From positions 544,001 through 608,000 of the forward strand of contig CAXXKA010000001.1 of the NCBI GenBank assembly GCA_963668625.2: a stretch of DNA of 64,000 bases. The letters are read 5' to 3'. The position numbers were made by a program, and so were the translations under genes. Positions 18,417-30,419 of this stretch are shown in pieces. A model generated the notes under the pieces. It searched no databases and was not told where the DNA came from. It saw nothing but the letters and a program-made list of their open reading frames with translations. The stretch's first letter is position 1; each line of letters opens with the position of its first letter. The DNA comes from an uncultured candidate division Zixibacteria bacterium (GTDB taxonomy: Bacteria; Zixibacteria; MSB-5A5; UBA10806; 4484-95).

Positions 18417-20768
18417 ATGAATCCTCATACTATTAATGTACTGGAGTTCAACCGAATAGTTGAAATACTTCACGACCTCTGTTGGAGTATACCGGCCAAA
18501 CGAACAACAATTCTACCCTCGACTGATCCGGCACGAATCGATAACTCGCTAGAGTGCCTGGCTGAGCTGGTAGAGATATATCAAGCAGAAGGCGGATTAC
18601 CGAGCTTGCAGTTCGGCGATATCGATATGATGCTCGAAAAAAGCGCCGCCGAGGGCAGCGTGCTCGAACCATCCGAGCTGGCTGAAATAGCTGATCTTTA
18701 TATCATAATAAAAAGCTTCGTAGAACTTGATAAGCGATACGAAAACTTAAAAAAATTAATTACACGGCTTGATTACGATGAGGAATTAACCAGGGAAATC
18801 GAAAAAACCGTGCAGAAACCTAATGAAATAAAGGATAGCGCCTCGCCCGAGCTGCGGGATATACGCCGCCGTTTACGTAAAACGCGAGACTCGCTGGAGG
18901 CGAAATATAATTCATATCTGGATTCCGATTATTCGAAATACCTTTCCGATAAAGTCGTGACCATGCGCGAGGGACGGTTCGTTCTGCCCGTAAGGGAGGG
19001 CGATAAAGGTAAGATCAAAGGTGTAGTACATGATCGCTCGTCCAGCGGTGTTACCTTCTTCGTCGAGCCGTTCGAAACAGTCGAATTGAATAACTCCTAT
19101 CGCGAGCTTCTGTCCGCCGAGAAACAGGAGATATTCAGGATACTTCGACATTTGACCGACAGAATACTGGCTAAAATAAATGATATCAAACAAAGTATTC
19201 AGGTTCTCGTGCAACTCGATATACTCTCTGCTAAAGCTCGTTTCGCTATAAAGCTGAAATGCCACCGGCCGGAATTCGGAAAAGATGGCGTTATTGATAT
19301 TAGAAACGGCTATCATCCGTTGTTGCGTTGGCGTGATAAAGAAAATGGAACCAACGCCACCGTACCGCTCACTATCGAACTGGCAAAAGACTTCAGCACG
19401 TTAATAATCACGGGCCCCAACACCGGCGGCAAAACCGTTACCCTGAAAACGGTCGGCTTGCTTTGTATGATGGCGCAAACGGGGATGTTCGTGCCGGTTG
19501 ACGAGGGGACATCGCTAAAAATATTCAGTGATATCTACGCCGATATCGGTGATGAGCAATCGCTGGAGGCCTCGCTTTCGACATTTTCCGCGCATCTTGC
19601 TAATATCAAGCGCGCGCTGGAAAACGCCACCGATGATTGCCTGGTACTTCTGGATGAAATAGGCGCCGGCACCGATCCCGACGAGGGCTCGGCGCTTGGA
19701 CAGGCGATTATCGAGAGTCTCGCCAACCGCAAAGTGCCGTCTATTATAACGACACATCACGGCAAGCTGAAAACGCTGGCAGTCAACAATGAAAATATAG
19801 AAAACGGTTCGCTCGATTTCGATACGCTGAAAATGCAGCCAACCTATAAATTCAGGATGGGCATACCGGGGTTGTCTTATGCTATCGAAACAGCACGCAA
19901 GCTGGGCATAAGCGATACGATAACCGACAGGGCCGAATCGTTGATCGACCGCTCCGAACGTAAGCTGGCGGCTATTATAAGCGAGCTGACAGAGAAACTT
20001 CAGCAGGCCGAGGAAAAACTCAATAAAGCCGAAAGCAGCCGGTTATCTTACGATTCGCTCGTGCAAATTTACACCGGCAAGCTCGAGGAGTTCGAAAAAG
20101 AGAAGAAAAAATTAAAGAAAGAATCTCTCGAGGAAAGCCGGAGAATGATCCGCGAGGCTAAAAAAGAGATCGACAGCCTGATCGATCAGGCCAAGCATTC
20201 GGATAAAAAAATCGAAGCTCTACGAGATGTGAGACATAAATCGGATGAAAGATTGCATGAGATAAACCAGCAGGTTAAAAGTATCGAGCCGCCGATTAGC
20301 GAGCCCCGGGCGAACGGTGTCGTTGGCGAGCAAGTTTACCTGCCGGAGATGCAAGCTCGGGGAGAAATAGTATCGAAACCGGATTCGAGCGGTCGGGTAA
20401 AAGTTAAAGTCGGTAATGTCATGCTGGTGACCGATCTCGATAAGCTCTATAAAACCGAGCAAACATCAAAAACGAGGGAACCAAGACCGGTGCCCGGTGC
20501 GTATATCGATAACACGCCCAATCTCGAGGTGGATTTGCGCGGGATGACTTTCGATGAAGCTCAGCCGGTGCTCGACAAGTACCTCGATGATGTTTACCTG
20601 GTTGGGATGAGCCAGGTCAGGGTAATACACGGCAAAGGTACCGGGGCTTTAAAAGCCAAAGTACACGATCATCTGAAAAAACATAAGAGAGTCAAATCGT
20701 ACCGCCTTGGATACTGGAACGAAGGTTCATACGGCGTGACTGTTGTCGAGATAAAGAGGGATAAGTGA
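18417..20768 (+). CDS. mutS2: MutS2 (ribosome collision factor / endonuclease) with Smr domain
   Basis: ITGPNTGGKT, DIGDEQS...SLSTFS, LLDEIGAGTDP, C-terminal IHGKGTG. Confidence 0.95.
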   Translation: MNPHTINVLEFNRIVEILHDLCWSIPAKRTTILPSTDPARIDNSLECLAELVEIYQAEGGLPSLQFGDIDMMLEKSAAEGSVLEPSELAEIADLYIIIKSFVELDKRYENLKKLITRLDYDEELTREIEKTVQKPNEIKDSASPELRDIRRRLRKTRDSLEAKYNSYLDSDYSKYLSDKVVTMREGRFVLPVREGDKGKIKGVVHDRSSSGVTFFVEPFETVELNNSYRELLSAEKQEIFRILRHLTDRILAKINDIKQSIQVLVQLDILSAKARFAIKLKCHRPEFGKDGVIDIRNGYHPLLRWRDKENGTNATVPLTIELAKDFSTLIITGPNTGGKTVTLKTVGLLCMMAQTGMFVPVDEGTSLKIFSDIYADIGDEQSLEASLSTFSAHLANIKRALENATDDCLVLLDEIGAGTDPDEGSALGQAIIESLANRKVPSIITTHHGKLKTLAVNNENIENGSLDFDTLKMQPTYKFRMGIPGLSYAIETARKLGISDTITDRAESLIDRSERKLAAIISELTEKLQQAEEKLNKAESSRLSYDSLVQIYTGKLEEFEKEKKKLKKESLEESRRMIREAKKEIDSLIDQAKHSDKKIEALRDVRHKSDERLHEINQQVKSIEPPISEPRANGVVGEQVYLPEMQARGEIVSKPDSSGRVKVKVGNVMLVTDLDKLYKTEQTSKTREPRPVPGAYIDNTPNLEVDLRGMTFDEAQPVLDKYLDDVYLVGMSQVRVIHGKGTGALKAKVHDHLKKHKRVKSYRLGYWNEGSYGVTVVEIKRDK

Positions 20769-22495
20769 TGGGTTACATACCCGAGGACATAGTCGAGAAA
20801 ATCAAAGATGATACGGATATTCTCGATTTGATCGGTGAGTATGTCACATTAAAACGAGCCGGTAAAGATTATATGGGTTTATGCCCGTTCCACAGGGAGA
20901 AAACTCCCTCGTTTACGGTCGTGCCCTCCAAGGGATTTTACTACTGTTTCGGTTGCGGCGCCTCGGGTAACGCTATCGGTTTCATCATGCGCCACGAAAA
21001 TCTCGACTACCCCGATGCGATAAAACATCTAGCCAAACGTTCCGGGATAACTATCCCCGAAACCGGCACATCAGATTCCCTCTCTGGCAGGATTTATCAA
21101 GCTACCGAGTATGCGCATGCTTTCTTCAGACGTAACCTGAAAAACTCAACTGCTTACGAGTATCTCAGGGGGCGGGGGCTCAATGATGATACCATTGCCG
21201 AGATGGAGATCGGTTATGCGCCACCGGGGTGGGAAAACCTGTACCGCGAGGTGGTTGCCGATAAGCTGGCTCCGTCGGATTTCGAGAAAGCCGGCCTTTT
21301 CGTTAACAGCGAGAAAAAGCAGGGTCATTATGATAAATTCCGTAATCGCCTTATGTTCCCGATCAAGAATATCTCCGGCAGAGTGATAGCTTTCGGTGGC
21401 AGGGCGCTGGGCGAGGATGAGGGACCGAAGTATCTCAACTCCCCGGAGACGATGATTTATCATAAAGGTTCTGTTCTTTACGGCTTAAACTGGTCGAAAA
21501 ACGATATCCGCAGCGCCGGCAAAGCGATCATCACCGAGGGCTATTTCGATTTCATCTCGGTGTACCAGGCCGGAATCAAAAACGCGGTAGCCGTTTCGGG
21601 CACAGGTTTCACGCCCAACCAGGCCTCGATACTCGGACGGTTTTGTAAAGAGGTAGTTCTTCTTTATGACGCCGACTCCGCCGGAATGAAAGCCACGTTC
21701 AGGGCTGTCGAGGTGTTGTTCAATGCCGGGCTGGAACCGTATATAGTGAGGCTGCCTAAAGGCGCCGATCCAGATAGCTTCATTAAGGAGAACGGTGTCG
21801 AGCCGCTGCAGGTGCTTTTGGATTCGGCCGTGGACTATATCGGTTTCGTAAAAGAATCGTTGCCTGATGATTACGCCAACCTGCCGATTTCCCGACAGGA
21901 ACGTATCATCAAATCGATGGTTGAAACCGCTACGGGCATAGAGGATGAGCTTCGATACGATTTGTTCGTTCGCAAAGCGATTGAAACTCTCGGTTTGCCT
22001 CAATCGGCGGCGGCGAAGTTCCACAAGCGAAATCAGAAAAGTAAAAAAAGAAGCATCCCGGAGATTTTAGGAAGAGTAAAACTCGAGCGAAACTATTTGG
22101 GGTTTTTATTCGGCAACGCCGAATTCATAAAGGAAAGCTCGCAGTTGCTGAAACCTGAGGTTTTTACGGATGTCGAAAGTAAAGAAATTTATTCGAATTT
22201 GATATCAGTTAACAGTAACAGTTTTTCTATCGGAGATTTTCTCGAGCAGTTTTCCGATGACGGTATCCGTCGCAAGATTACCGAAATCATAGTAAGTGAA
22301 ACCGCCGGGGCTCCGCCTGATTTAAGGTTCAATGAGTACTTGGAGAAATTTAAGAATCTGCAGGTATCGGACAGGCTCAATATCTTACAGTCCGAGATAG
22401 CCCGAGCAGAGAGGGAGGGGGACATTGAAAATGCTGACAAACTTACCCGAGAATATCAAGACCTTCGAAACGTCGCTAGAAAAAAGGTGGTATAA
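20768..22495 (+). CDS. dnaG: DNA primase
   Basis: CPFH.EKTPSF...CFGC zinc finger; KYLNSPET; EGYFD; YDADSAG; DPD. Confidence 0.97.
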   Translation: MGYIPEDIVEKIKDDTDILDLIGEYVTLKRAGKDYMGLCPFHREKTPSFTVVPSKGFYYCFGCGASGNAIGFIMRHENLDYPDAIKHLAKRSGITIPETGTSDSLSGRIYQATEYAHAFFRRNLKNSTAYEYLRGRGLNDDTIAEMEIGYAPPGWENLYREVVADKLAPSDFEKAGLFVNSEKKQGHYDKFRNRLMFPIKNISGRVIAFGGRALGEDEGPKYLNSPETMIYHKGSVLYGLNWSKNDIRSAGKAIITEGYFDFISVYQAGIKNAVAVSGTGFTPNQASILGRFCKEVVLLYDADSAGMKATFRAVEVLFNAGLEPYIVRLPKGADPDSFIKENGVEPLQVLLDSAVDYIGFVKESLPDDYANLPISRQERIIKSMVETATGIEDELRYDLFVRKAIETLGLPQSAAAKFHKRNQKSKKRSIPEILGRVKLERNYLGFLFGNAEFIKESSQLLKPEVFTDVESKEIYSNLISVNSNSFSIGDFLEQFSDDGIRRKITEIIVSETAGAPPDLRFNEYLEKFKNLQVSDRLNILQSEIARAEREGDIENADKLTREYQDLRNVARKKVV

Positions 22496-23959
22496 ATGAC
22501 CGAAGAATATAACGAAACCATAGAAGAAAGCGCCGACGAAATAGAAGGCAATTCCGAGGGAAGCGAGACCGAGGAACATGTCGATGAAGTTCAGATCAGA
22601 AAAGACCTGATCGATTCCGATGCCGGTAGCGATACGGCCTGGGCTTATTTCAAAGACCTGGGACGTTTTAATATTCTGACCCGCCAGCAGGAAATAACTG
22701 TCGCCAGGCGGATAGAGATGCATAAAATCAGTATCAAAGAGATAATCTTTTCCTCGCTGACGGTACTCGAGAAGATGCTCGAATGCCAGGACAGGCTTAT
22801 AAATAAAGAGATACGTCTTGAGGATATAGTCTCACCCGAGACCTGCCGGTGGTTCGCGCCGGAAAATATCAAACGCGAGAAATCCAATGTTTTGAGCCGG
22901 TTCAAAAGAATCAGCAAAATCATGGATGATGCCGAGAACCAGGTTAGCGAGAAAGAGAAAATCAAAAAGGGTAAACTTCAATTAAGATATAATCTCAGGC
23001 GTAAGTTGATGGCCGAGATCGAGAAGTTTAATTTCAACCTGGAGTTTCTCGAAAGCCTGACAAAGGTTTTCAAACTGCAGGCCAAGGATGGCAGGAAACA
23101 TCGGCGACCACACAGCAGCTTGCCCGAACTTCAGGATAAATCACCGATCGATTACCTCTTCGCCGAGGAGTTGCCGGTCGATGAGCTGGAGAAAGTCAAA
23201 AGACGTCTACGGTTTTTGGAACGCGAATTGGAGAAAGCCAAGCGTATCATGGTCGAGGCCAATATGCGTCTGGTAATCTCGATTGCCCGCAAGTATATCG
23301 GGCGGGGTATGGAATTCATGGACCTGGTGCAGGAGGGCAATTCCGGGCTGGTTAAGGCAGTCGATAAATTCGACTACACCAAAGGATTTAAATTCGGTAC
23401 CTACGCCTCCTGGTGGATTCGTCAGGCGATAACGCGGGCGCTGGCCGAGCAGGCTAAAACGATTCGCACCCCGATGTATCTCAACAGCCAGTATGGCCGG
23501 GTGGCGAAAGTATCGCAGAATTTATTCCAAAAACTGGGACGCAAACCCGATATCAAAGAGATCTCCGAACAATCGGGATTCCCCGAGGATAAGGTCGAGG
23601 ATATCATGCAGATGATACCTCAAACAGTGTCGCTTTCCAAGCCGTTGGGGGATGACGAGGAGAACCAGGTGTTCAACCTGATCGCCGATCCTCAATTTTC
23701 AACGACCTCGGGTAAAGCCTCATTCGTATATCTTCAAGATCAACTGGAGAAGGTGCTTCACACGCTCTCTCGTCGTGAGGAGGAAGTAATTCGTCTGAGA
23801 TTTGGAATGAAAGATGGTATGCCCAGAACACTTGAGGAAGTAGGATTGATTTTCAATCTCACGCGCGAGAGGATTCGTCAAATAGAGGCTAAAGCATTAA
23901 AGAAATTAAGGCATCGCACACGTTCCGAAAAATTGAAAGAATGTATCGATCTGTTGTAA
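22496..23959 (+). CDS. rpoD: RpoD/SigA-like sigma-70 factor with divergent regions 1.2 and 3.0
   Basis: [41 protein letters not shown]...TRERIRQIE; directly follows dnaG. Confidence 0.8.
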
Positions 23960-24119: not shown

Positions 24120-24148
24120 TTGACAGATACTTACATTAATGCTATTTT
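24120..24148 (+). promoter_or_regulatory. Sigma-70-type promoter for the CPPYC-protein cassette
   Basis: TTGACA-N17-TATTTT with TG extension. Confidence 0.5.
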
Positions 24149-24293
24149 ATTCATGTGAATGGAATCGATTTATCAATAATAAGTGTGCTCGGTTAAAATT
24201 ATTGCAACAAAGGTTAAGTATTTCAGTATATTGAGCTAGTCTCTCGTACAGCTCTTAAGCAAATGGTCTAACTTTAAAACGAATGGGGGAATT

Positions 24294-24614
24294 ATGAACC
24301 TCGATCCGAAAAAAGATCACTCAATTGACTTGGACACTGCCGCAAAATTAACCAAACGATTTCGAGCTAAAACTAAACCAGGAGACTCGATTTCAGTAGC
24401 TTTCAACAAGGCAGCAATTGCGGGGATCATGGATCAATCTGGATGTGTGGGGCTTAGGATGTATTTTGCCTTGACCGATGAAGGCAAGGAAACAGTCGTT
24501 TTAGTTGGTGTTGATGAAAAGGGAAATGATTTATTCAAAGGCCAACTTATGGAATGGGGAGGAGACTGTCCCCCGTATTGCTCGGGAGCGAATCCGCTCA
24601 ATGGCGAAAGTTAG
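24294..24614 (+). CDS. Small hypothetical protein with C-terminal CPPYC motif (candidate signal precursor)
   Basis: SD GGGGG; GLRMYFA...TVVLVGVD..GND...CPPYC; no signal peptide. Confidence 0.85.
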   Translation: MNLDPKKDHSIDLDTAAKLTKRFRAKTKPGDSISVAFNKAAIAGIMDQSGCVGLRMYFALTDEGKETVVLVGVDEKGNDLFKGQLMEWGGDCPPYCSGANPLNGES

Positions 24615-24617
24615 TAC

Positions 24618-25343
24618 TTGTTCTACTTGTTCTTAATACAGAATAGTTTTACGATAATCGCTTTGATAACTGGCATTATTTGTTACCGGCGGTTATCGAA
24701 ACCATTGAAATTACTATTCTATCTCATTATGGTTATGGTAGCGGTAGAAAGTTATTCTTTCTACCGCTTTCTTGATGCAAAACCAAATCACTGGCCGTCA
24801 CATATATATATGGTTATAGAGTTCGTGTTGTTTTTCCTCATATTCAAGCAGTGGCAATCGAGCAAAATTATAATTAAAGCAATCAATTATGTCGTACCTA
24901 CATTCTTACTGTTTTGTATTATAAATTACATCTTTTTCAGCCAGCCGATATTTCTGCTCGTGGATGGTCTGATTGTTTTCAACTCCTGGGCTCTATATAA
25001 TTTTATACCGATAAAAATCGCAGTCGTATTTTTCACTGCCATTTCCGCTTTTACTATACTTCAATTGTTTGAAAACGACCGGGGAGATATCTTGGAGATC
25101 CCAGCTTTCTGGGTAAGCTCGGGCTTATTGTTCTTCTCGTCGGTATCGATTGTTTATTTTATACTGGTTACTTTTGTCGTAGTAAGTGATAAATACGCTA
25201 TTTATCCAGCTATCACAATGACAGCTACTAATGTGATGGCCAATTCTTTTTATGCAATGAGTTTCATTGTTCAATGGAAGCACTCCAGGGATTGTTCGCC
25301 GGAAAATATAAAAGATATAAGTAGCCAAGATTTTATGTTATAG
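24618..25343 (+). CDS. Multi-pass (~7 TM) membrane protein, candidate receptor or processing subunit
   Basis: Starts 3 nt after the previous stop; about seven hydrophobic segments; P.FW...GLL.F motif. Confidence 0.8.
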   Translation: MFYLFLIQNSFTIIALITGIICYRRLSKPLKLLFYLIMVMVAVESYSFYRFLDAKPNHWPSHIYMVIEFVLFFLIFKQWQSSKIIIKAINYVVPTFLLFCIINYIFFSQPIFLLVDGLIVFNSWALYNFIPIKIAVVFFTAISAFTILQLFENDRGDILEIPAFWVSSGLLFFSSVSIVYFILVTFVVVSDKYAIYPAITMTATNVMANSFYAMSFIVQWKHSRDCSPENIKDISSQDFML

Positions 25344-25458
25344 CATGAGGTTGTTTGCTTTTAATCGCTAATGCAATCCAGGATTAAGAAATTTATTTAT
25401 TGCATATTTACAGATTTGTGTTATTATTGCGTATATATGTACGGAATCAGGAGTTTCT

Positions 25459-26337
25459 ATGACTAGTTCATTATTCGGAAGTATGCTAATTATAATAGCA
25501 ATACTCACAATACTGTCAATTAGTATTGTCAGTGGTGTTATAACCCACAGCCGAAAAATCCGTGAACAGGAAGCTAAATTCAGATTGTTGTTTAATAAAG
25601 TAAGCGATGCTTTAATAGTGTTCGATATAGATGAGAAAATCCATAGTGTAAACGAATCAGCCGGTAGTTTACTAAAATATCAAGATAAAGAGATAGTAAA
25701 ATCAAATTTAAAGGATATAATAGTAAAAGATAAGTGGCTGGAATTATCCGAGAATTTAAAAAAAGTCTTTACTACCGGTAAATCCTTTAACTCCGAATCG
25801 AGCCTTCTGGATGCCAAAGGCAATACTATCGAGGTGGAGGTTATCGGGGTAAAAATAAAACTGAAAAACAAGCAATACATTCTTACCAGTTTCAGGGATA
25901 TCACTCGCCGTAAACATGATGAAATGCAACTCAGGAAGAAACATATTGCGCTTCAGGAGGTACTGGCGCACCTGGAGGATGAGAAACTGAAGATCAAGCA
26001 GCAGGTTGCTAAGACAGTAGATCAGGTCTTGATGCCGACGTTGAACAGAATAAACAGCAGCCAGACTAGTTCAAATCAGGGCTATTTTGATGTGTTAAAG
26101 AATGGTCTTGAGGAACTATCAAGCACCTCGAGTACGATCGTGCAAATTTACTCGAAACTGACACCGAGAGAGATCGAAATCTGCAATTTAATCAAAAACG
26201 GCTCGACCTCCAAAGAGATCGCTCAGACTTTAAACATCTCAATGTTAACTGTAAATAAACATCGAGAAAGAATAAGAAAAAAACTGGTAATCTCCAATAA
26301 AAGCATAAACCTAACCTCTTATTTGAAAAGGTTATAG
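25459..26337 (+). CDS. Membrane-anchored PAS + LuxR-type HTH regulator
   Basis: N-terminal TM; PAS (VN.SA..LL.Y...E ... RDITRRK); coiled coil; LTPREIEIC.LIKNG.TSKEIA..L.IS..TV..HR..IRKKL. Confidence 0.9.
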   Translation: MTSSLFGSMLIIIAILTILSISIVSGVITHSRKIREQEAKFRLLFNKVSDALIVFDIDEKIHSVNESAGSLLKYQDKEIVKSNLKDIIVKDKWLELSENLKKVFTTGKSFNSESSLLDAKGNTIEVEVIGVKIKLKNKQYILTSFRDITRRKHDEMQLRKKHIALQEVLAHLEDEKLKIKQQVAKTVDQVLMPTLNRINSSQTSSNQGYFDVLKNGLEELSSTSSTIVQIYSKLTPREIEICNLIKNGSTSKEIAQTLNISMLTVNKHRERIRKKLVISNKSINLTSYLKRL

Positions 26338-26341
26338 CATA

Positions 26342-26370
26342 AGTATCTCGTACGTATATGTACGTAATAC
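26342..26370. promoter_or_regulatory. Putative operator: clustered GTA-N-TAC near-palindromes
   Basis: agtatctcgtacgtatatgtacgtaatac; related boxes at 25430-25443 and 24238-24249. Confidence 0.4.
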
Positions 26371-26427
26371 GAACCTTATCTTTGCCGCATTGACTATCTC
26401 GAAATAAGTCCTATATATATTATAAAT

Positions 26428-26604
26428 GCAAAATAAAACTGTTTTGCGAATAGCTGAGAAAGTTTAGAACTCTAATTTCTGATTAGAGTGAAAGTCCCAT
26501 CTCTTTTTGGTGATAGGGGGGCTTATTTCATCCTCTTCGTGGACTAGTTGTTCGTTAATTACGTAACAATAGCCGCGATAAAATAAGCCTCTCTATTCTT
26601 TTTT
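26428..26604 (+). ncRNA. Candidate structured small RNA or attenuator leader
   Basis: Hairpins at 26428-47 and 26469-89; 17-bp stem 26512-28/26581-97 enclosing a second ~17-bp stem; U-tract 26599-604; TTGACT at 26390. Confidence 0.5.
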
Positions 26605-26851: not shown

Positions 26852-28594
26852 ATGAACAAGCTCATGATCAAGACGGCAATAGTAATTGCAGCGTTCGTGT
26901 TAGGCACAGTTTCCTCATGGGCAGAGGTTTTGATAAAACTTGATAACCCGGAGTATGATAATATTAAGGTAACGGGTTTTGAGTTAGAAAAGCCAGGCAA
27001 CATTGAAATAGAGGCGGTTGGATTAAGCCTGAGATATCAGGATGATCTTAATGTGTATGCCTGGATTATCGATCATGATACACGAGAATTAGTTTGGACG
27101 ATGAAAGAACGTCGAGCAGACAGGATTCGCGGAAGTAAAGTGCTTTACGAAGAGAAACTGGATCAATATTTCGATAAAGGTAAATATGAAATTTACCTTT
27201 TTACCAGTGATTTTTCCTTTTCTAATATCTCTATTCATGGTACGGGTGATTTTTTCGAGTTTTTGGGGGATATTTTTAGCGATGATTATGACAGGGAATG
27301 GGATAAATATATCGAGGATTGCCATGTCCAGTTATCATCGAATGATATCTCTAAAAGTGATTTCAAGGAGTTTGATGCCAACGGCGATCTGCCCGGCGCT
27401 CTTATTAAATACAATCGAGTAGGTGATTCCGAATATATCTCGACTGGAATTAGACTTGAAAAGCCGATGTCATTAAAAATCTACTCATTGTTCGAATTTC
27501 CCAAAGATTATAGGGATCCGGTCGATTATGGCTGGTTGGTGAATGCTAAAACTCTTGAGAAAGTATGGGAAATAGACAGATGGAACACTGATTGGGCCGG
27601 CGGTAGTAGAAAAAACAGAATGTTCAATGATGAGATCAAGCTGGACAAAGGCGATTATATACTTTATTTCGTTACCGATGATTCTCATTCATATGAACGA
27701 TTTAATGCTAATCCCCCTTACGATCCTATTAATTGGGGTATCACTATTTTGCCCGGAAAAGATTTCGATAAAGGCGCTTTCAAAACTTATGAGCCGGCGG
27801 GCAGGGGAGATCCACTGCTTGAATTAACCCGAGCTCGGGATCGTGATTTCCTCGAGCAGCCTTTCAAGATGAAAAAAGACGGTGTTATTCATATCTATGC
27901 CGTTGGCGAATATTCATATAGTTCGCGTGAGTTTGCCGATTTCGGCTGGATACAAGATGCCGCCAGTGGTAAAATAGTCTGGGAAATGAGCTACCGTAAT
28001 ACCGACCATGCCGGTGGAGCTAAGAAAAACCGCAAATTCGACGGCCAGGTCGAGCTGAAAAAAGGCCAGTATATAGCTTATTATTCCACTGATGATTCGC
28101 ATTCGTACCGTGACTGGAACGATTCACCGCCGTTCGATCCTAAAGCCTGGGGGCTTGCCATTTACGCGGGACCTGATTTTGATAAGAAAAATTTTGAAAA
28201 GATATCCCAAAAGGATCTAACCTCGAATTCCAATATCCTGGTTAAAATGGTGATGGTTCGGGATGGCGAACGCCGGCGCGAGAAATTCACGCTGGATAAG
28301 CAGTCGCGTATTCATATTTATGCCATAGGCGAGGCCGATCGCGATGAGATGTATGATTACGGCTGGATCGTCGATGATCGCACCAATCGCTCGGTTTGGG
28401 AAATGACCTGGAGAAATACCGAACCTGCCGGCGGAGCTCGAAAAAACCGTCTATTCGATGACGATATACTGCTTGATCCAGGTACCTACGAGGTATATTT
28501 CGTCTCCGATGGCTCGCACTCGTTCAACGATTGGAATGCCTCTAAACCTCGCGATCCGATTAATTGGGGTATTACGGTCAGTAAATCAGAATAA
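26852..28594 (+). CDS. Secreted protein of four tandem ~130-aa domains, unknown function
   Basis: Signal peptide; repeated YGWI.D..T...VWEM..RNT..AGGA.KNR.F...L..G.Y..Y...DDSHSY...N..PP.DP..WG. Confidence 0.85.
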   Translation: MNKLMIKTAIVIAAFVLGTVSSWAEVLIKLDNPEYDNIKVTGFELEKPGNIEIEAVGLSLRYQDDLNVYAWIIDHDTRELVWTMKERRADRIRGSKVLYEEKLDQYFDKGKYEIYLFTSDFSFSNISIHGTGDFFEFLGDIFSDDYDREWDKYIEDCHVQLSSNDISKSDFKEFDANGDLPGALIKYNRVGDSEYISTGIRLEKPMSLKIYSLFEFPKDYRDPVDYGWLVNAKTLEKVWEIDRWNTDWAGGSRKNRMFNDEIKLDKGDYILYFVTDDSHSYERFNANPPYDPINWGITILPGKDFDKGAFKTYEPAGRGDPLLELTRARDRDFLEQPFKMKKDGVIHIYAVGEYSYSSREFADFGWIQDAASGKIVWEMSYRNTDHAGGAKKNRKFDGQVELKKGQYIAYYSTDDSHSYRDWNDSPPFDPKAWGLAIYAGPDFDKKNFEKISQKDLTSNSNILVKMVMVRDGERRREKFTLDKQSRIHIYAIGEADRDEMYDYGWIVDDRTNRSVWEMTWRNTEPAGGARKNRLFDDDILLDPGTYEVYFVSDGSHSFNDWNASKPRDPINWGITVSKSE

Positions 28595-28661: not shown

Positions 28662-28790
28662 ATATTAAAAGCCACCGGTTCTGTGACCGGTAGCAGTTTA
28701 ATGATATGTCTTGACGAAATCCTCCCATCAGTTATATTCGAATAGAGCAGGATGGTGTGATTTGAATCTTATCCGAGGAATTTGTTAACT

Positions 28791-30419
28791 ATGATTAAAA
28801 AAATATTCGTAATTGCTCTCATATTGGCATGCGTTGGCGCCGCCGGAGCTACAATAATTAATGTGCCCGATGATTACCCTACTATCCAGAGTGGTATTAA
28901 CGCCTCGGTTGACGGCGATACGGTATTATTGGGTATAGGAAGTTATGCCGAACATATAAATTTCAATGGCAAAGAAATATTACTTACCTCGGGATACCTG
29001 TTTAGCGGGGAGGATGACGACCGGATTCTGACCGCTCTCTGTGATAGTACGATAGAAGAATCACTGGTAAAATTTGATTCGGGGGAAAGCAGCAACTCCA
29101 TAATATACGGGCTCACACTCGCCCACGGGCGCGCGATGTACGGCGGCGCTATCTGTTGCCGTAACTCCAGCCCAACGATAGCAGAATGCGATATAGCATT
29201 CAATGAATCCATGGGATTCGGCGGAGCTATTTTCATCGAAAACGGTTCCCCCGTGATAAGAAATAATTACATTCTCTATAATCATGCGATAGATTGCGGC
29301 GGCGCCATGTACCTCTTAAACAGCGATGCCGAGATTAGAGATAATAAAATCAGCCTGAATACAGCCGATGAAAACGGCGGGGCTTTGTATCTCTGGTATT
29401 CCAATCCGGCTGTCGAAAACAATTTATTTCCCGCCAATGAAGCAGGCGACAGGGGAGGTATGGCTTATCTCTGGTTCTCCGATCCGCTTATCATGAATAA
29501 TACCGTACAATATAACCTGGCCCAAAGATACGGCGGCGCCATGTATATTTACGCCTCTGCTCCGCTAATTTATCGAAATAATTTCGAGGAGAACAGCTCA
29601 ATCGAAAGAGGCGGCGCGATATTCGCCTGGTACTCCGATCCCATCATTAAAAATAACGTGATTGCCGGGAACAGCTCGGCTCTTTGCGGCGGAGTATATA
29701 TTGGAAATAACTCCAATGCCGAGGTGATCAACAATACCATAGTATTGAATACCGCCGAAAGAGGCGGCGGTTTCTATAGCTGGGGATGCGATCCTGTTCT
29801 GGAAAATAATATTTTCTGGTATAACCGGGCCGAGATCGGTGCGCAGATTGAGCAGGGCACCGATACCAACCCGATAGTACGTTTTTGCAATGTCGAGGGC
29901 GGCTATGAGGGAGAGGGTAATATCGATTCCGAACCGTTGTTTCGGGATACCCTTTCATACGATTTTCATCTGATGGATACTTACTGCGATGATCCTTACG
30001 ATTCGCCCTGTATTGATGCAGGCAATCCTGATATTGCCGATGACACGCTTGATTGTAACTGGGGATTGGGAACGATCGCTAGTGATATTGGAGCTTTTGG
30101 CGGTGGTAATATCAATGTCGGAATAGAAGATAATGATCCTCAAACGATTCTCCCTGCCCGGATGGATATCATCTGTAATTACCCCAACCCGTTTAACGGT
30201 TCGACCGTTATATGCTTTCAGCTATCGCAACCGGGTGATATCGAATTGTCGATTTATGATATTCTTGGGCGCAAGGTGGAGTGTGTTCGTGAAGAACATG
30301 AGGCAGCCGGAACGTATACGATTACCTGGCTGGCTGACGGCAAGCCATCCGGGATATACTACGCACGACTGAAAACCTCGAAGAGCATGTTCTCGACATC
30401 AATGATTTTACTGAAGTAG
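28791..30419 (+). CDS. Secreted right-handed beta-helix (GGAI-repeat) protein with C-terminal sorting domain
   Basis: INVPDDYPTIQ.GIN; repeated N.A...GGA.Y; SPCIDAG; NYPNPFN tail. Confidence 0.85.
   Translation: MIKKIFVIALILACVGAAGATIINVPDDYPTIQSGINASVDGDTVLLGIGSYAEHINFNGKEILLTSGYLFSGEDDDRILTALCDSTIEESLVKFDSGESSNSIIYGLTLAHGRAMYGGAICCRNSSPTIAECDIAFNESMGFGGAIFIENGSPVIRNNYILYNHAIDCGGAMYLLNSDAEIRDNKISLNTADENGGALYLWYSNPAVENNLFPANEAGDRGGMAYLWFSDPLIMNNTVQYNLAQRYGGAMYIYASAPLIYRNNFEENSSIERGGAIFAWYSDPIIKNNVIAGNSSALCGGVYIGNNSNAEVINNTIVLNTAERGGGFYSWGCDPVLENNIFWYNRAEIGAQIEQGTDTNPIVRFCNVEGGYEGEGNIDSEPLFRDTLSYDFHLMDTYCDDPYDSPCIDAGNPDIADDTLDCNWGLGTIASDIGAFGGGNINVGIEDNDPQTILPARMDIICNYPNPFNGSTVICFQLSQPGDIELSIYDILGRKVECVREEHEAAGTYTITWLADGKPSGIYYARLKTSKSMFSTSMILLK

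What the first reader, a model, noticed from the sequence alone, without database searches (positions are those of the whole stretch)
24120..26604. Candidate undescribed peptide-signalling cassette: CPPYC precursor + 7-TM protein + membrane-anchored PAS-LuxR regulator
Seen: an AT-rich three-gene block after rpoD. Gene 1 is a 106-aa protein without signal peptide, with a compact core (GLRMYFA..TVVLVGVD) and a tail WGGDCPPYCSGANPLN in which two Cys could close a 5-residue ring. Gene 2, 3 nt downstream, is a ~7-TM protein with no soluble output domain. Gene 3 is one TM helix + PAS + coiled coil + LuxR HTH, with no kinase or receiver domain. From memory, unverified: similar CPPxC-tailed small genes sit next to a 7-TM gene and a single-TM histidine kinase / LuxR pair in Bacteroidota, with no function I know of. 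Inference: the small protein yields a cyclic peptide signal, the 7-TM protein processes or senses it, and it couples to the regulator's TM helix. That would be an Agr-like logic collapsed into a kinase-free one-component output.
Basis: partly seen in the sequence, partly recalled or inferred. Interest (0 to 1): 0.88.

Follow-up and report, generated by a model that had tools for sequence, protein, structure and literature searches.

The report
Kinase-free variant of unnamed sensor cassette
Three adjacent genes (a small folded cysteine-motif protein, a seven-helix membrane protein and a membrane-anchored DNA-binding regulator) form a conserved, still unnamed bacterial signalling module, but the small protein looks like a folded partner of the membrane protein and not like the precursor of a cyclic peptide signal.

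Summary
Three real genes lie at 24294-24614 (g1, 106 aa), 24618-25343 (g2, seven helices) and 25459-26337 (g3: one membrane helix, PAS, helical linker, LuxR HTH).

- **Conservation:** the order g1-g2-g3 is kept in 16 of 21 loci examined. g1 and g2 profiles hit exactly the same 21 of 285 genomes of the phylum.
- **Motif:** CPPxC is present in 20 of 21 local homologues and CPxxC in 144 of the 150 best library representatives.
- **g1 is a domain, not a leader plus core.** It is a confidently folded ~100-residue domain (pLDDT 91) with no Pfam, NCBIfam or PDB match. It also occurs as tandem two-domain proteins and with signal peptides. A cleaved cyclic peptide is therefore not supported.
- **g2 is a receptor-like bundle.** It has a rhodopsin/GPCR-like shape, no conserved catalytic His or Cys, and is fused to a LuxR HTH in one relative.
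- **Outputs vary.** Elsewhere the same g1+g2 pair feeds a HisKA_3 kinase plus a NarL-type regulator. Here g3 replaces both, and Ala stands at the aligned phospho-His position.
- **Cis-element:** a TACGTAA box and a promoter-like site follow g3.

The signal is unknown. Earlier notes of this scan describe the four-gene cassette on other DNA; this is its kinase-free variant.

The parts
24120..24148 (+). Promoter-like site upstream of g1 (TTGACA, 17 nt, TATTTT)
   Evidence: Consensus scan, 10 of 12 matches. The scan found 9 such sites in the region against 11.0 expected, so this is a position only, not evidence of function.
24242..24249 (+). TCTCGTAC box 45 nt upstream of the g1 start codon, repeated just after g3
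   Evidence: 3 matches in the 64-kb window, at 24242, 26346 and 33260. Chance expectation is 1.33, and 14 of 100 shuffles gave 3 or more. Suggestive by position only.
24294..24614 (+). g1: 106-aa CPPxC-domain protein, leaderless, of an unnamed family
   Evidence: ORF. No Pfam, NCBIfam or PHROG hit. 1166 library representatives at E<=1e-3. AlphaFold2 pLDDT 91.3 and pTM 0.77 for the whole chain. No PDB fold match: best E 0.19, TM<=0.28. Conserved R55, Y57, D79, C92, P93, C96, and C51 in 145 of 204 domain instances.
24618..25343 (+). g2: 241-aa seven-helix membrane protein, constant partner of g1
   Evidence: ORF. Seven helices, pLDDT 87.4, pTM 0.84. Invariant G19, E68, F164, W165 in 18 homologues. 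Best fold matches are microbial rhodopsins and GPCRs, E 8.9e-3 or worse, TM 0.41-0.62. In L024 it is fused to a LuxR-type HTH, but that GerE hit (E 0.0016, 18.4 bits) is below the 23.5-bit cut-off. Residues 109-122 are a window-specific low-confidence insertion.
25430..25443 (+). CGTATATATGTACG box 15 nt upstream of the g3 start codon
   Evidence: Read; pattern search (3 matches at up to 2 mismatches, 1.46 expected). It resembles the box after g3. Not conserved in other loci, where g2 and g3 mostly overlap.
25459..26337 (+). g3: 292-aa membrane-anchored regulator (TM helix 10-28, PAS 40-150, helical linker 152-232, LuxR HTH 233-281)
   Evidence: Pfam GerE 1.1e-12 and PAS_9 5.3e-9. TM helix. 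13-member family alignment. hhalign against the cassette kinases gives Prob 94.9, E 4.7e-8 over 225 columns, with A184 at the phospho-His column. The linker alone is not significant.
26346..26372 (+). Operator-like boxes directly after the g3 stop: TCTCGTAC, then GTACGTA twice 10 nt apart, including TACGTAA
   Evidence: The only two GTACGTA in the window are at 26350 and 26360. TACGTAA lies within 45 nt after the g3 stop in 10 of 16 triad loci (positions, gene ends).
26390..26419 (+). Conserved promoter-like site (TTGACT, 17-18 nt, ATATAT/TATATA)
   Evidence: A block TGTCGTATTG(A/C), with variants, is aligned in 13 loci, followed by an A/T-rich hexamer about 17 nt on. The consensus scan did not list this site.
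26469..26535 (+). Hairpins and a G6 run (26516-26521) downstream of that promoter-like site: terminator or short RNA, unresolved
   Evidence: MFE folds. A GGGGG run lies 46-126 nt after the -35-like box in 8 of 12 loci, against 77 of 1048 background 160-nt windows. No Rfam hit. My covariance model found only its own three training loci.
26559..26566 (.). Perfect palindrome TTACGTAA in the g3-to-next-gene spacer
   Evidence: 2 of the 4 TACGTAA sites in the 64-kb window lie in this 515-nt spacer, although the total count is at chance level (6 strand matches, 6.38 expected).
26852..28594 (+). Downstream 580-aa secreted repeat protein: possible regulated neighbour, membership unproven
   Evidence: ORF with an N-terminal hydrophobic leader and four internal repeats (read). 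No Pfam, NCBIfam or PHROG hit. The same gene follows the cassette in L017. In other loci groES-groEL-like or other genes follow.

Best explanation
This is a three-part membrane signalling module without phosphotransfer.

**Input pair.** The constant input is g1 plus g2. g2 is a seven-helix, receptor-shaped membrane protein with its N-terminus outside and its C-terminus inside. g1 is a folded ~100-residue domain whose most conserved features are a C-P-P-x-C turn, a third Cys, and R55, Y57 and D79. g1 acts as a protein partner (co-sensor or modulator) of g2. It is not cleaved into a diffusible peptide. The window's copy has no export signal, so it most likely acts at the cytoplasmic face. Its thiols suggest a redox or metal input.

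**Relay.** The state of the g1-g2 pair passes within the membrane to the single TM helix of g3. From there it runs through the PAS domain and a long helical linker to a LuxR-type HTH dimer.

**Output.** g3 binds TACGTA-type boxes directly after its own gene and in front of a conserved promoter-like site.

**Origin of g3.** In other lineages the same input pair feeds a TM(-PAS)-HisKA_3 kinase and a NarL-type regulator. g3 looks like that pair collapsed into one protein that has lost the phospho-His, the ATPase domain and the receiver.

**Shown:** the genes, their conservation and co-occurrence, the folds, the domain content, the alternative outputs, and the conserved cis-element.

**Inferred:** physical contacts, the compartment of g1, the nature of the signal, DNA binding at the boxes, and the evolutionary route.
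For: **Conservation and linkage**
- g1-g2-g3 in one orientation in 16 of 21 loci; g1+g2 adjacent in 19 of 21.
- Longest ORFs of g2 and g3 overlap in 13 of 16 triad loci.
- g1 profile and g2 profile hit the same 21 of 285 genomes, in 3 of 20 families.

**Variable outputs on a constant g1+g2 core**
- TM-PAS-LuxR of about 295 aa in 13 loci; longer multi-PAS-LuxR in 3.
- 7TM fused to a LuxR-like HTH in L024.
- HisKA_3/HATPase kinase plus REC-GerE regulator in L056, L068 and L070.
- The pair alone in L009.

**g1 is a domain**
- pLDDT 91.3, with the last 16 residues at 82-86.
- Conservation along the whole length.
- 53 of the 150 best representatives are tandem two-domain proteins. One tandem form sits in the same cassette.

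**g2 is receptor-like and not enzyme-like**.

**g1 and g2 diverge together and fast**
- At the syntenic locus of the same genus, rpoD is 83% identical, dnaG 64%, g1 46% and g2 28%.
- Pairwise identities correlate g1-g2 rho 0.59, g1-g3 0.12, g2-g3 0.39 over 12 loci.

**g3 versus the cassette kinases**
- hhalign E 4.7e-8 over 225 collinear columns. The His column holds Ala in 11, Val in 2 and His in 0 of 13.

**Cis-element**
- TACGTAA within 45 nt after the g3 stop in 10 of 16 triad loci, followed by a conserved -35-like block.
Against: - **No contact is shown.**
- **Compartment of g1 is unsettled.** 31 of the 150 best representatives carry an N-terminal hydrophobic segment, some with lipobox-like sequences. 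The domain therefore works outside the cytoplasm in at least part of the family, which sits badly with a cytoplasmic role here.
- **C51 is dispensable.** It is present in only 145 of 204 domain instances, so a three-Cys metal site cannot be general.
- **The kinase-relic reading is weak where it matters.** The linker alone aligns in the same register but without significance (Prob 0.19%, E 0.31). No HisKA_3 Pfam hit appears at E<=10 in the 4 linker segments scanned. The full-length hhalign score may rest on the TM helix and PAS, and no unrelated PAS kinase was run as a control.
- **The L024 HTH is sub-threshold.** GerE scores 18.4 bits against a 23.5-bit cut-off.
- **Box counts in the window are at chance level**. 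Only their positions and their recurrence in other loci speak for function. The loci are kin, so 10 of 16 overstates independence.
- **The promoter scan did not list the 26390 site.**
- **The identity correlation uses non-independent pairs,** and 4 of 16 loci were dropped (L018, L015, L025, L026).
Confidence: 0.55

Rival explanations
1. Protein-pheromone or self-recognition pair. g1 is released from the cell whole, through its signal peptide where it has one and by an unknown route where it has none. It is then read from outside by its cognate 7-TM receptor g2, which relays to g3. The fast, joint divergence of g1 and g2 would then reflect specificity groups, as in the agr or com pherotypes.
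For: - g1 is 46% and g2 28% identical within a genus where dnaG is 64% and rpoD 83% identical, at the same chromosomal position.
- The g1-g2 identity correlation is higher than g1-g3.
- 31 of 150 representatives have signal- or lipoprotein-like N-termini.
- A conserved Cys pair is typical of extracytoplasmic proteins.
- g2 has a receptor-like seven-helix fold, and a conserved N..W.HH motif lies at its predicted outer face.
- The block has low GC.
Against: - The window's g1 and 119 of the 150 best representatives have no export signal.
- No exporter is conserved beside the cassette.
- The outer loops of g2 are very short.
- Membrane proteins and small proteins often diverge fast without any diversifying selection. 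No dN/dS or allele survey was done.
Confidence: 0.2
2. g1 is a precursor whose C-terminal CPPYC tail is cut off and closed into a 5-residue ring. g2 processes or senses that peptide, in an Agr-like circuit with a one-component output.
For: - CPPxC is strongly conserved.
- The tail after it (N-x-L-N) is also conserved.
- RiPP precursors with long, protein-like leaders exist (NHLP and Nif11 types; recalled, not from a call).
- g1-g2 adjacency mimics agrD-agrB.
Against: - The tail is part of a confident fold.
- R55, Y57 and D79 in the 'leader' are as conserved as the Cys residues.
- Tandem forms keep an internal CPPxC.
- The GG before the motif in the window is not conserved.
- g2 has no conserved Cys, His or Ser-type catalytic set.
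- No NHLP or Nif11 model matched g1 at E<=1 in NCBIfam.
- No peptidase, cyclase or ABC exporter is kept nearby.
Confidence: 0.07
3. g1 is a negative regulator, in the manner of an anti-sigma or LiaF-like brake. It holds the g2-g3 complex off and is released or inactivated by envelope or oxidative stress. The system would then be a stress module with chaperone or envelope genes as targets.
For: - In 4 loci groES/groEL-like genes follow g3 directly on the same strand (L010, L013, L014, L023). In L020 they follow after a receiver gene (groES/EL named from the translated sequences, not from a family search).
- Thiol motifs often serve as oxidation switches (general knowledge).
- The sensor-less kinases of the sister cassettes (L056) resemble intramembrane-sensing kinases, which depend on accessory proteins (general knowledge of LiaFSR and BceRS).
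Against: - Downstream genes differ between loci, so no common target is evident.
- 3 of the groES loci (L013, L014, L023) lack the TACGTAA box and were left out of the promoter alignment.
- Nothing distinguishes a brake from a co-activator in sequence.
Confidence: 0.12
4. This is not a signalling input at all. g1 is a small secreted toxin or bacteriocin-like protein, g2 is its multi-pass immunity protein, and g3 merely regulates them.
For: - The small Cys-containing protein next to a polytopic membrane protein, the fast divergence and the low GC recall bacteriocin-immunity pairs.
Against: - g2 is fused to a DNA-binding HTH in L024 and overlaps the regulator or kinase gene in most loci. This fits signal relay, not immunity.
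- There is no leader, no GG-type processing site kept and no exporter.
Confidence: 0.04

Closest known systems
Unnamed four-gene cassette (CPxxC protein, 7-TM protein, HisKA_3 kinase, NarL/LuxR response regulator) seen in Bacteroidota and metagenomes
   Same: - g1 and g2 are homologous: the A1 and A2 profiles hit L056, L068 and L070 at E 1e-20 to 1e-42.
- Same gene order, and the same LuxR-type HTH at the end.
- The kinase begins with one TM helix, plus PAS in L068, like g3.
   Different: - Here the kinase and response regulator are replaced by one protein without His, ATPase or receiver.
- I found no paper on this cassette. It is known to me only from my own loci and from unchecked notes of this scan.
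LiaFSR / VraTSR, BceRS-AB and UhpABC: sensor kinases that depend on a separate membrane protein (recalled knowledge)
   Same: Works alike. A transducer with almost no sensing domain of its own takes its input from a separate polytopic membrane protein encoded beside it, and the output is a NarL/LuxR-type HTH.
   Different: - No homology of g1 or g2 to LiaF, VraT, BceAB or UhpC was found (no Pfam or NCBIfam hit).
- No phosphorelay in the window's version.
- There is an extra small soluble partner.
agr quorum sensing (AgrB-AgrD-AgrC-AgrA) of staphylococci (recalled knowledge)
   Same: - Small protein gene directly before a polytopic membrane protein gene, followed by the transducer.
- Fast joint divergence of the first two genes.
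   Different: - g1 is a folded domain, not a ~46-aa propeptide.
- g2 lacks the His/Cys pair of AgrB.
- There is no HPK10 kinase and no LytTR regulator.
ComQXPA of Bacillus (ComP is a HisKA_3-class kinase, ComA a NarL-type regulator; recalled knowledge)
   Same: - The sister cassettes share the HisKA_3 / NarL-type output class.
- The input genes are polymorphic.
   Different: - No ComQ-like prenyltransferase.
- The sensor helices are on a separate protein.
- No kinase in this window.
7TMR-DISM receptors (Pfam PF07695)
   Same: A seven-helix bacterial membrane module linked to varied intracellular signalling outputs.
   Different: - Only 1 of 18 g2 homologues gave a weak hit (E 0.026); the window's g2 gave none.
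- No extracellular DISMED domain.
- The output is on a separate polypeptide.
Membrane-bound one-component regulators such as ToxR and CadC (recalled; CadC seen only in the search listing)
   Same: A DNA-binding regulator tethered to the membrane that signals without phosphorylation.
   Different: - ToxR and CadC have an N-terminal winged HTH and a C-terminal periplasmic sensor.
- g3 has an N-terminal anchor with about 9 residues outside, and everything else, including a C-terminal LuxR HTH, inside.

Membership tests
LuxR/GerE-type HTH regulators (Pfam PF00196) | C-terminal GerE helix-turn-helix above the Pfam gathering score | tested here: met
   g3 residues 233-281, 47.9 bits against a 23.5-bit cut-off, E 1.1e-12.
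Acyl-homoserine-lactone LuxR receptors | N-terminal autoinducer-binding domain | tested here: not met
   No autoinducer-binding family among the 17 Pfam hits of g3 at E<=1; the N-terminal part is TM plus PAS. NCBIfam hits to SdiA and PA1136-type models cover only the HTH (residues 227-282), far below cut-off.
Two-component response regulators (NarL family) | Receiver domain with the phospho-Asp pocket | tested here: not met
   No Response_reg hit in g3. The regulators of L056, L068 and L070 do have one.
HisKA_3 histidine kinases | DHp helix with the phospho-acceptor His, plus a HATPase_c domain | tested here: not met
   No HisKA_3 or HATPase_c hit in g3 or in the 4 linker segments scanned at E<=10. 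The column aligned to the His holds Ala in 11, Val in 2 and His in 0 of 13. Collinearity with the cassette kinases (E 4.7e-8) suggests descent, not membership.
Unnamed CPxxC-protein / 7-TM cassette | g1-type domain gene directly upstream of a g2-type seven-helix gene, followed by a transducer ending in a LuxR-type HTH | tested here: met
   Window; 16 of 21 loci in the phylum; L056, L068 and L070. The family has no curated definition; these features are my own working definition.
agr system | AgrB-type membrane endopeptidase with conserved catalytic His and Cys | tested here: not met
   Invariant residues of 18 g2 homologues are G19, E68, F164 and W165; nearly invariant are W79, S92, F96 and L171. 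The His/Cys requirement of AgrB is recalled, not from a call.
agr system | Short propeptide (AgrD) whose core forms a thiolactone ring with the C-terminus after cleavage | tested here: not met
   g1 is a 106-aa domain folded with confidence, pLDDT 91.3. Tandem forms exist. Actual processing is not testable with these tools.
RiPP precursors with long leaders (NHLP / Nif11 type) | Match to the leader-family models and a neighbouring maturation enzyme or C39-peptidase exporter | tested here: not met
   No NCBIfam or Pfam hit for g1 at E<=1. No such neighbour recurs in 21 loci. That NCBIfam holds NHLP and Nif11 models is recalled.
7TMR-DISM_7TM (PF07695) | Match to the Pfam model above the gathering score | tested here: not met
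   Window g2: no hit at E<=1. 1 of 18 homologues at E 0.026.
Microbial rhodopsins | Retinal-binding Lys in helix 7 | tested here: not met
   The fold resembles rhodopsins only weakly (E 8.9e-3 at best, TM 0.41-0.62). No Lys is conserved in helix 7 of the 18-sequence alignment. The Lys requirement is recalled.

The most novel reading that the evidence does not exclude
g1 and g2 form a bacterial ligand-receptor pair of a new kind. A whole folded CPPxC protein, of a fold not seen in the PDB, is the cognate and rapidly co-diversifying partner of a GPCR-shaped seven-helix receptor. Strains would thereby fall into specificity groups. In this lineage the receptor signals with no kinase at all, through a pseudo-kinase fused to a LuxR HTH. 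Its direct target would be a short RNA transcribed from the conserved TACGTAA-box promoter that sits between the g3 stop codon and the operon terminator.
Probability: 0.15. Interest if true: 0.85.

Novelty: new variant of a known kind. Interest (0 to 1): 0.62.

Why it matters
- **Two unannotated families.** g1 has 1166 representative clusters at 50% identity. Neither g1 nor g2 has a Pfam, NCBIfam or PHROG model, and g1 has no PDB fold match. They always travel together in the phylum searched.
- **A modular sensor head.** The pair plugs into at least three different outputs: a kinase plus response regulator, a His-less kinase-like protein fused to the HTH, and a direct 7TM-HTH fusion. That is a natural series showing how a two-component pathway can collapse into a one-component one.
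- **A tractable route to the signal.** The kinase-free version has only three proteins and a candidate operator next to the genes. It is the simplest form in which to find out what the g1-g2 pair senses.
- **If the pair defines specificity groups,** it would be a new class of bacterial self/non-self or communication system outside the Firmicutes peptide paradigms.

Tried and rejected
- **Word-indexed homologue searches.** These found almost nothing: g1 gave 2 proteins and g2 only its own 212-aa gene call. The exhaustive search and genome searches were needed.
- **Protein atlas.** g1's nearest clusters are unnamed 'hypothetical protein' clusters, mostly Bacteroidota. g2 had no usable named hit.
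- **Complex prediction, g2 (A2) with g1 (A1).** No verdict, score 0.00 against a mark of 0.32. This is evidence neither for nor against binding.
- **g3 linker as a degenerate HisKA_3 DHp.** BLASTP to two cassette kinases put the H-box in the same register, but at E 0.19 and 0.55; L056 gave nothing useful. Full-length hhalign was significant. The linker alone was not. Pfam gave no HisKA_3 hit, and PDB sequence searches gave only chance-level hits. I keep it as a suggestion only.
- **Conserved structured RNA after g3.** RNAalifold on 7 loci gave no consistent structure (-2.92 kcal/mol). Covariance model R1, built from 3 loci, recovered only those 3 among 23 sources. No Rfam hit. The hairpins may simply be the operon terminators.
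- **Expression.** No RNA holder was listed among the 4 runs found.
- **Phage or plasmid copies.** No tblastn hit of g1 in the phage or plasmid collections. No PHROG hit. No IMG/VR locus with P0091 as query. I could therefore not confirm the phage-borne copies described in earlier notes. My queries reach close relatives only.
- **L058 (Saccharibacteria MAG).** 30% identity over 79 residues, with no A1 or A2 profile hit. Treated as a false lead.
- **L011.** I checked whether g2 continues into an HTH after a frameshift. It does not.
- **Literature.** Searches for 'CPPxC' (returned only polyphosphate-binding-domain papers), '7TMR-DISM'+'LuxR', 'HisKA_3'+'Bacteroidetes'+'seven transmembrane'+'LuxR', 'intramembrane-sensing histidine kinase'+'Bacteroidetes', and PAS/LuxR/one-component/membrane-anchored terms found no description of this cassette. 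Of PMC8895600 I read five passages, none relevant. All other papers were seen only as search listings. Supplementary files were not consulted.
- **Taxon.** I did not name the organism. The only clue is a type IX secretion sorting domain in a neighbouring gene.

Full report
**What is there**

The window holds, after dnaG (20765-22495) and rpoD (22496-23959), three same-strand ORFs:
- g1, 24294-24614, 106 aa
- g2, 24618-25343, 241 aa, TTG start, 3 nt after g1
- g3, 25459-26337, 292 aa, after a 115-nt gap

The block is AT-rich: GC is 0.31-0.43 against 0.45-0.53 upstream. g1 ends in WGGDCPPYCSGANPLNGES and has no hydrophobic segment.

g3 has one N-terminal hydrophobic helix at 10-28, a PAS domain at 40-150, and a GerE/LuxR HTH at 233-281 with E 1.1e-12. 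It shows no kinase or receiver domain. g1 and g2 match no Pfam, NCBIfam or PHROG family.

**The genes are real and linked**

A six-frame search of 61 related genomes with g1 gave strong hits mainly in two families of the same order. I fetched 20 such loci. Counting the window as the 21st locus:
- g1 and g2 are adjacent in 19 of 21.
- The full g1-g2-g3 order in one orientation occurs in 16 of 21.

The five exceptions are:
- L009: the pair is followed by convergent housekeeping genes.
- L011: the contig ends 233 nt after g2, and there is no hidden HTH.
- L024: see below.
- L027 and L028: two lone g1-like genes.

The longest ORFs of g2 and g3 overlap in 13 of the 16 triad loci.

Profiles of g1 (A1, 58 sequences) and g2 (A2, 18 sequences) each hit 21 of the 285 genomes held for the phylum, and they are the same 21 genomes, in 3 of 20 families. 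These genomes are kin, so this is not 21 independent events. The own genome has one copy of each.

**What g1 is**

The exhaustive library search found 1166 representative proteins at E<=1e-3 and 343 at E<=1e-10. Among the best 150:
- 53 are tandem proteins of 200 aa or more; one search reports two matched stretches for the ~210-290-aa hits.
- 31 carry an N-terminal hydrophobic segment, some with lipoprotein-like Cys.
- 119 are leaderless like the window's.
- A CPxxC motif occurs in 144 of the 150; of 167 motifs, 135 are CPPxC.

Over 204 domain instances, the conserved positions are:

| Position | Instances of 204 |
|---|---|
| R55 | 198 |
| Y57 | 189 |
| P93 | 186 |
| D79 | 181 |
| C92 | 173 |
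| C96 | 172 |
| C51 | 145 |

AlphaFold2 with the 58-sequence alignment folds the whole chain with mean pLDDT 91.3 and pTM 0.77. It gives two helices and a four-stranded sheet, and the tail blocks score 82-88. Foldseek finds nothing in the PDB: best E 0.19, TM 0.28 or lower.

So g1 is a compact domain of an undescribed family. CPPxC is a conserved structural or functional turn inside it, not a detachable core peptide. The GG that precedes the motif in the window is not conserved.

**What g2 is**

AlphaFold2 gives seven long helices with pLDDT 87.4 and pTM 0.84. The only disordered part is a window-specific insertion at 109-122. The positive charges in loop 1 (RRLSKP) and loop 3 place the N-terminus outside and the C-terminus inside. 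This is my reading, not a topology program.

Foldseek's best PDB matches are microbial rhodopsins and GPCRs, at E 8.9e-3 to 0.2 and TM 0.41-0.62. This indicates a generic seven-helix bundle, not homology. No Lys is conserved in helix 7.

Invariant residues are G19, E68 (mid helix 3), F164 and W165 (cytoplasmic start of helix 6). There is no conserved His, Cys or Ser set that would suggest a peptidase.

In L024, a second copy in a genome of the same genus, the seven-helix protein continues into a C-terminal LuxR-like HTH. The GerE hit has E 0.0016 and 18.4 bits, below the 23.5-bit cut-off. This fusion argues that g2 passes information to a DNA-binding output.

**Different outputs on the same input pair**

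- **One Bacteroidia MAG locus (L056):** g1-like gene, g2-like gene (A2 profile E 2.7e-20), a 253-aa single-TM HisKA_3/HATPase kinase, and a REC-GerE regulator.
- **Metagenome locus L068:** a tandem two-domain g1, g2, a TM-PAS-HisKA_3-HATPase kinase and a REC-GerE regulator.
- **Metagenome locus L070:** a single g1, g2, a TM-HisKA_3-HATPase kinase and a REC-GerE regulator.
- **An Ignavibacteriales MAG (L057):** a g2 relative right after a partial g1 match; the locus ends about 840 nt beyond g2.

It also shows that g1+g2 is the constant core, while the transducer varies. In the window's phylum none of the 21 loci shows a kinase next to the pair (not checked by Pfam in every ORF).

**What g3 is**

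Its family (13 sequences, A9) is well conserved. The own genome has three large paralogues that share the linker-plus-HTH half at 43-53% identity.

Against an alignment of the three cassette kinases, hhalign gives Prob 94.9 and E 4.7e-8 over 225 collinear columns. These run from the TM helix through PAS and the linker into the H-box region. The phospho-acceptor His of the kinases aligns with A184 of g3. That column holds Ala in 11, Val in 2 and His in 0 of 13.

Two pairwise BLASTP runs found the same register, but at E 0.19 and 0.55. The linker alone also found the same register, but at E 0.31. Pfam sees no HisKA_3.

I therefore take 'pseudo-kinase fused to the regulator's HTH' as a reasonable but unproven origin. 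The kinase-free state itself is shown.

**Cis-elements**

Nine nt after the g3 stop lies TCTCGTAC, followed by GTACGTA twice, 10 nt apart. These are the only two GTACGTA in the window. A related box, CGTATATATGTACG, lies 15 nt before the g3 start. TCTCGTAC recurs 45 nt before the g1 start. Counts in the window are at chance level.

The argument for function is comparative:
- TACGTAA lies within 45 nt after the g3 stop in 10 of 16 triad loci (with gene ends).
- It is followed about 20 nt later by a block TGTCGTATTG(A/C), which reads as a -35 box, with an A/T-rich hexamer about 17 nt further. This was aligned in 13 loci. L013, L014 and L023 looked different and were left out.

The proteins around this block are only 40-55% identical, so such non-coding conservation suggests a binding site and promoter. 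The box centre is about 26 nt upstream of the -35 element. The simple promoter scan did not list this site.

Downstream come GC-rich hairpins, often with a T run and a G-rich loop. These may be the operon terminator, or the end of a short transcript that starts at this promoter. My attempts to show a conserved RNA failed, and no RNA run was available. The protein genes that follow differ between loci.

**Fast joint divergence**

In a genome of the same genus the pair sits at the same place after dnaG-rpoD. Identities there are:

| Gene | Identity |
|---|---|
| rpoD | 83% |
| upstream 783-aa protein | 67.5% |
| dnaG | 64% |
| g1 | 46% |
| g2 | 28% |

Over 12 loci, pairwise identities of g1 and g2 correlate (rho 0.59) better than g1-g3 (0.12) or g2-g3 (0.39). 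Four loci were dropped for broken or longer genes, and the pairs are not independent. This fits a co-evolving pair. It keeps a ligand-receptor or specificity-group reading alive, but it does not prove selection.

**Verdict**

This is a real, conserved and, as far as my five literature searches show, undescribed signalling cassette. The window carries its kinase-free variant.

- the cassette
- the motif
- the Bacteroidota relatives
- the collapsed output

The scan has noted the four-gene form before on other DNA (unchecked notes). I verified that form independently in three loci. I could not confirm the phage-borne copies mentioned there.

The signal, the compartment in which g1 acts and all physical contacts remain open.

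Noticed in passing
window 26852-28594 (+): A 580-aa protein with an N-terminal leader and four internal repeats of about 130 aa (recurring ...GW..D.....VWEM..RNT..AGG.KNR.F...).L..G.Y..Y..(T/S)D(D/G)SHS...WN..P..DP..WG...). It has no Pfam, NCBIfam or PHROG hit. The same gene follows the cassette in L017.
   Followed up: partly
window 26390-26535 and the same position in L012, L015-L022, L025, L026: A conserved promoter-like block between the g3 stop and GC-rich hairpins whose loops often hold GGGGG(A). It could be a short RNA that shares the operon terminator. There is no Rfam hit, and my covariance model did not generalise.
   Followed up: partly
L024:4456-5283 (-), second cassette copy in a genome of the same genus: The seven-helix protein is fused to a C-terminal LuxR-like HTH, with a g1 gene directly upstream and a 165-aa PAS fragment on the other strand.
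   Followed up: partly
L010, L013, L014, L020, L023, downstream of g3: In family f2 the cassette lies directly upstream of genes that read as groES and groEL (about 95 aa and 545 aa). In L020 and L021 a stand-alone 122-aa receiver protein comes between or follows.
   Followed up: no
G000 contigs C8:85820-86233, C6:883757-884164, C4:161068-161508 (loci L061-L063): Three very long open frames (1147-1846 aa) share the helical-linker-plus-LuxR half of g3 at 43-53% identity. This points to a lineage-specific family of large PAS-LuxR one-component regulators.
   Followed up: no
window 24618-24704: A public gene call starts g2 29 codons later (212 aa). That would remove the first membrane helix, which is conserved in homologues.
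   Followed up: partly
window 28782-30419 (+): A 545-aa protein with Chlamydia-PMP-type repeats and a type IX secretion C-terminal sorting domain. This places the organism among bacteria that use that secretion system.
   Followed up: no
window 24740-24768 (+), inside g2: A 12-bp perfect-stem hairpin (AGCGGTAGAAAG...CTTTCTACCGCT) followed by T-rich sequence, listed as terminator-like, lies inside the g2 coding region.
   Followed up: no
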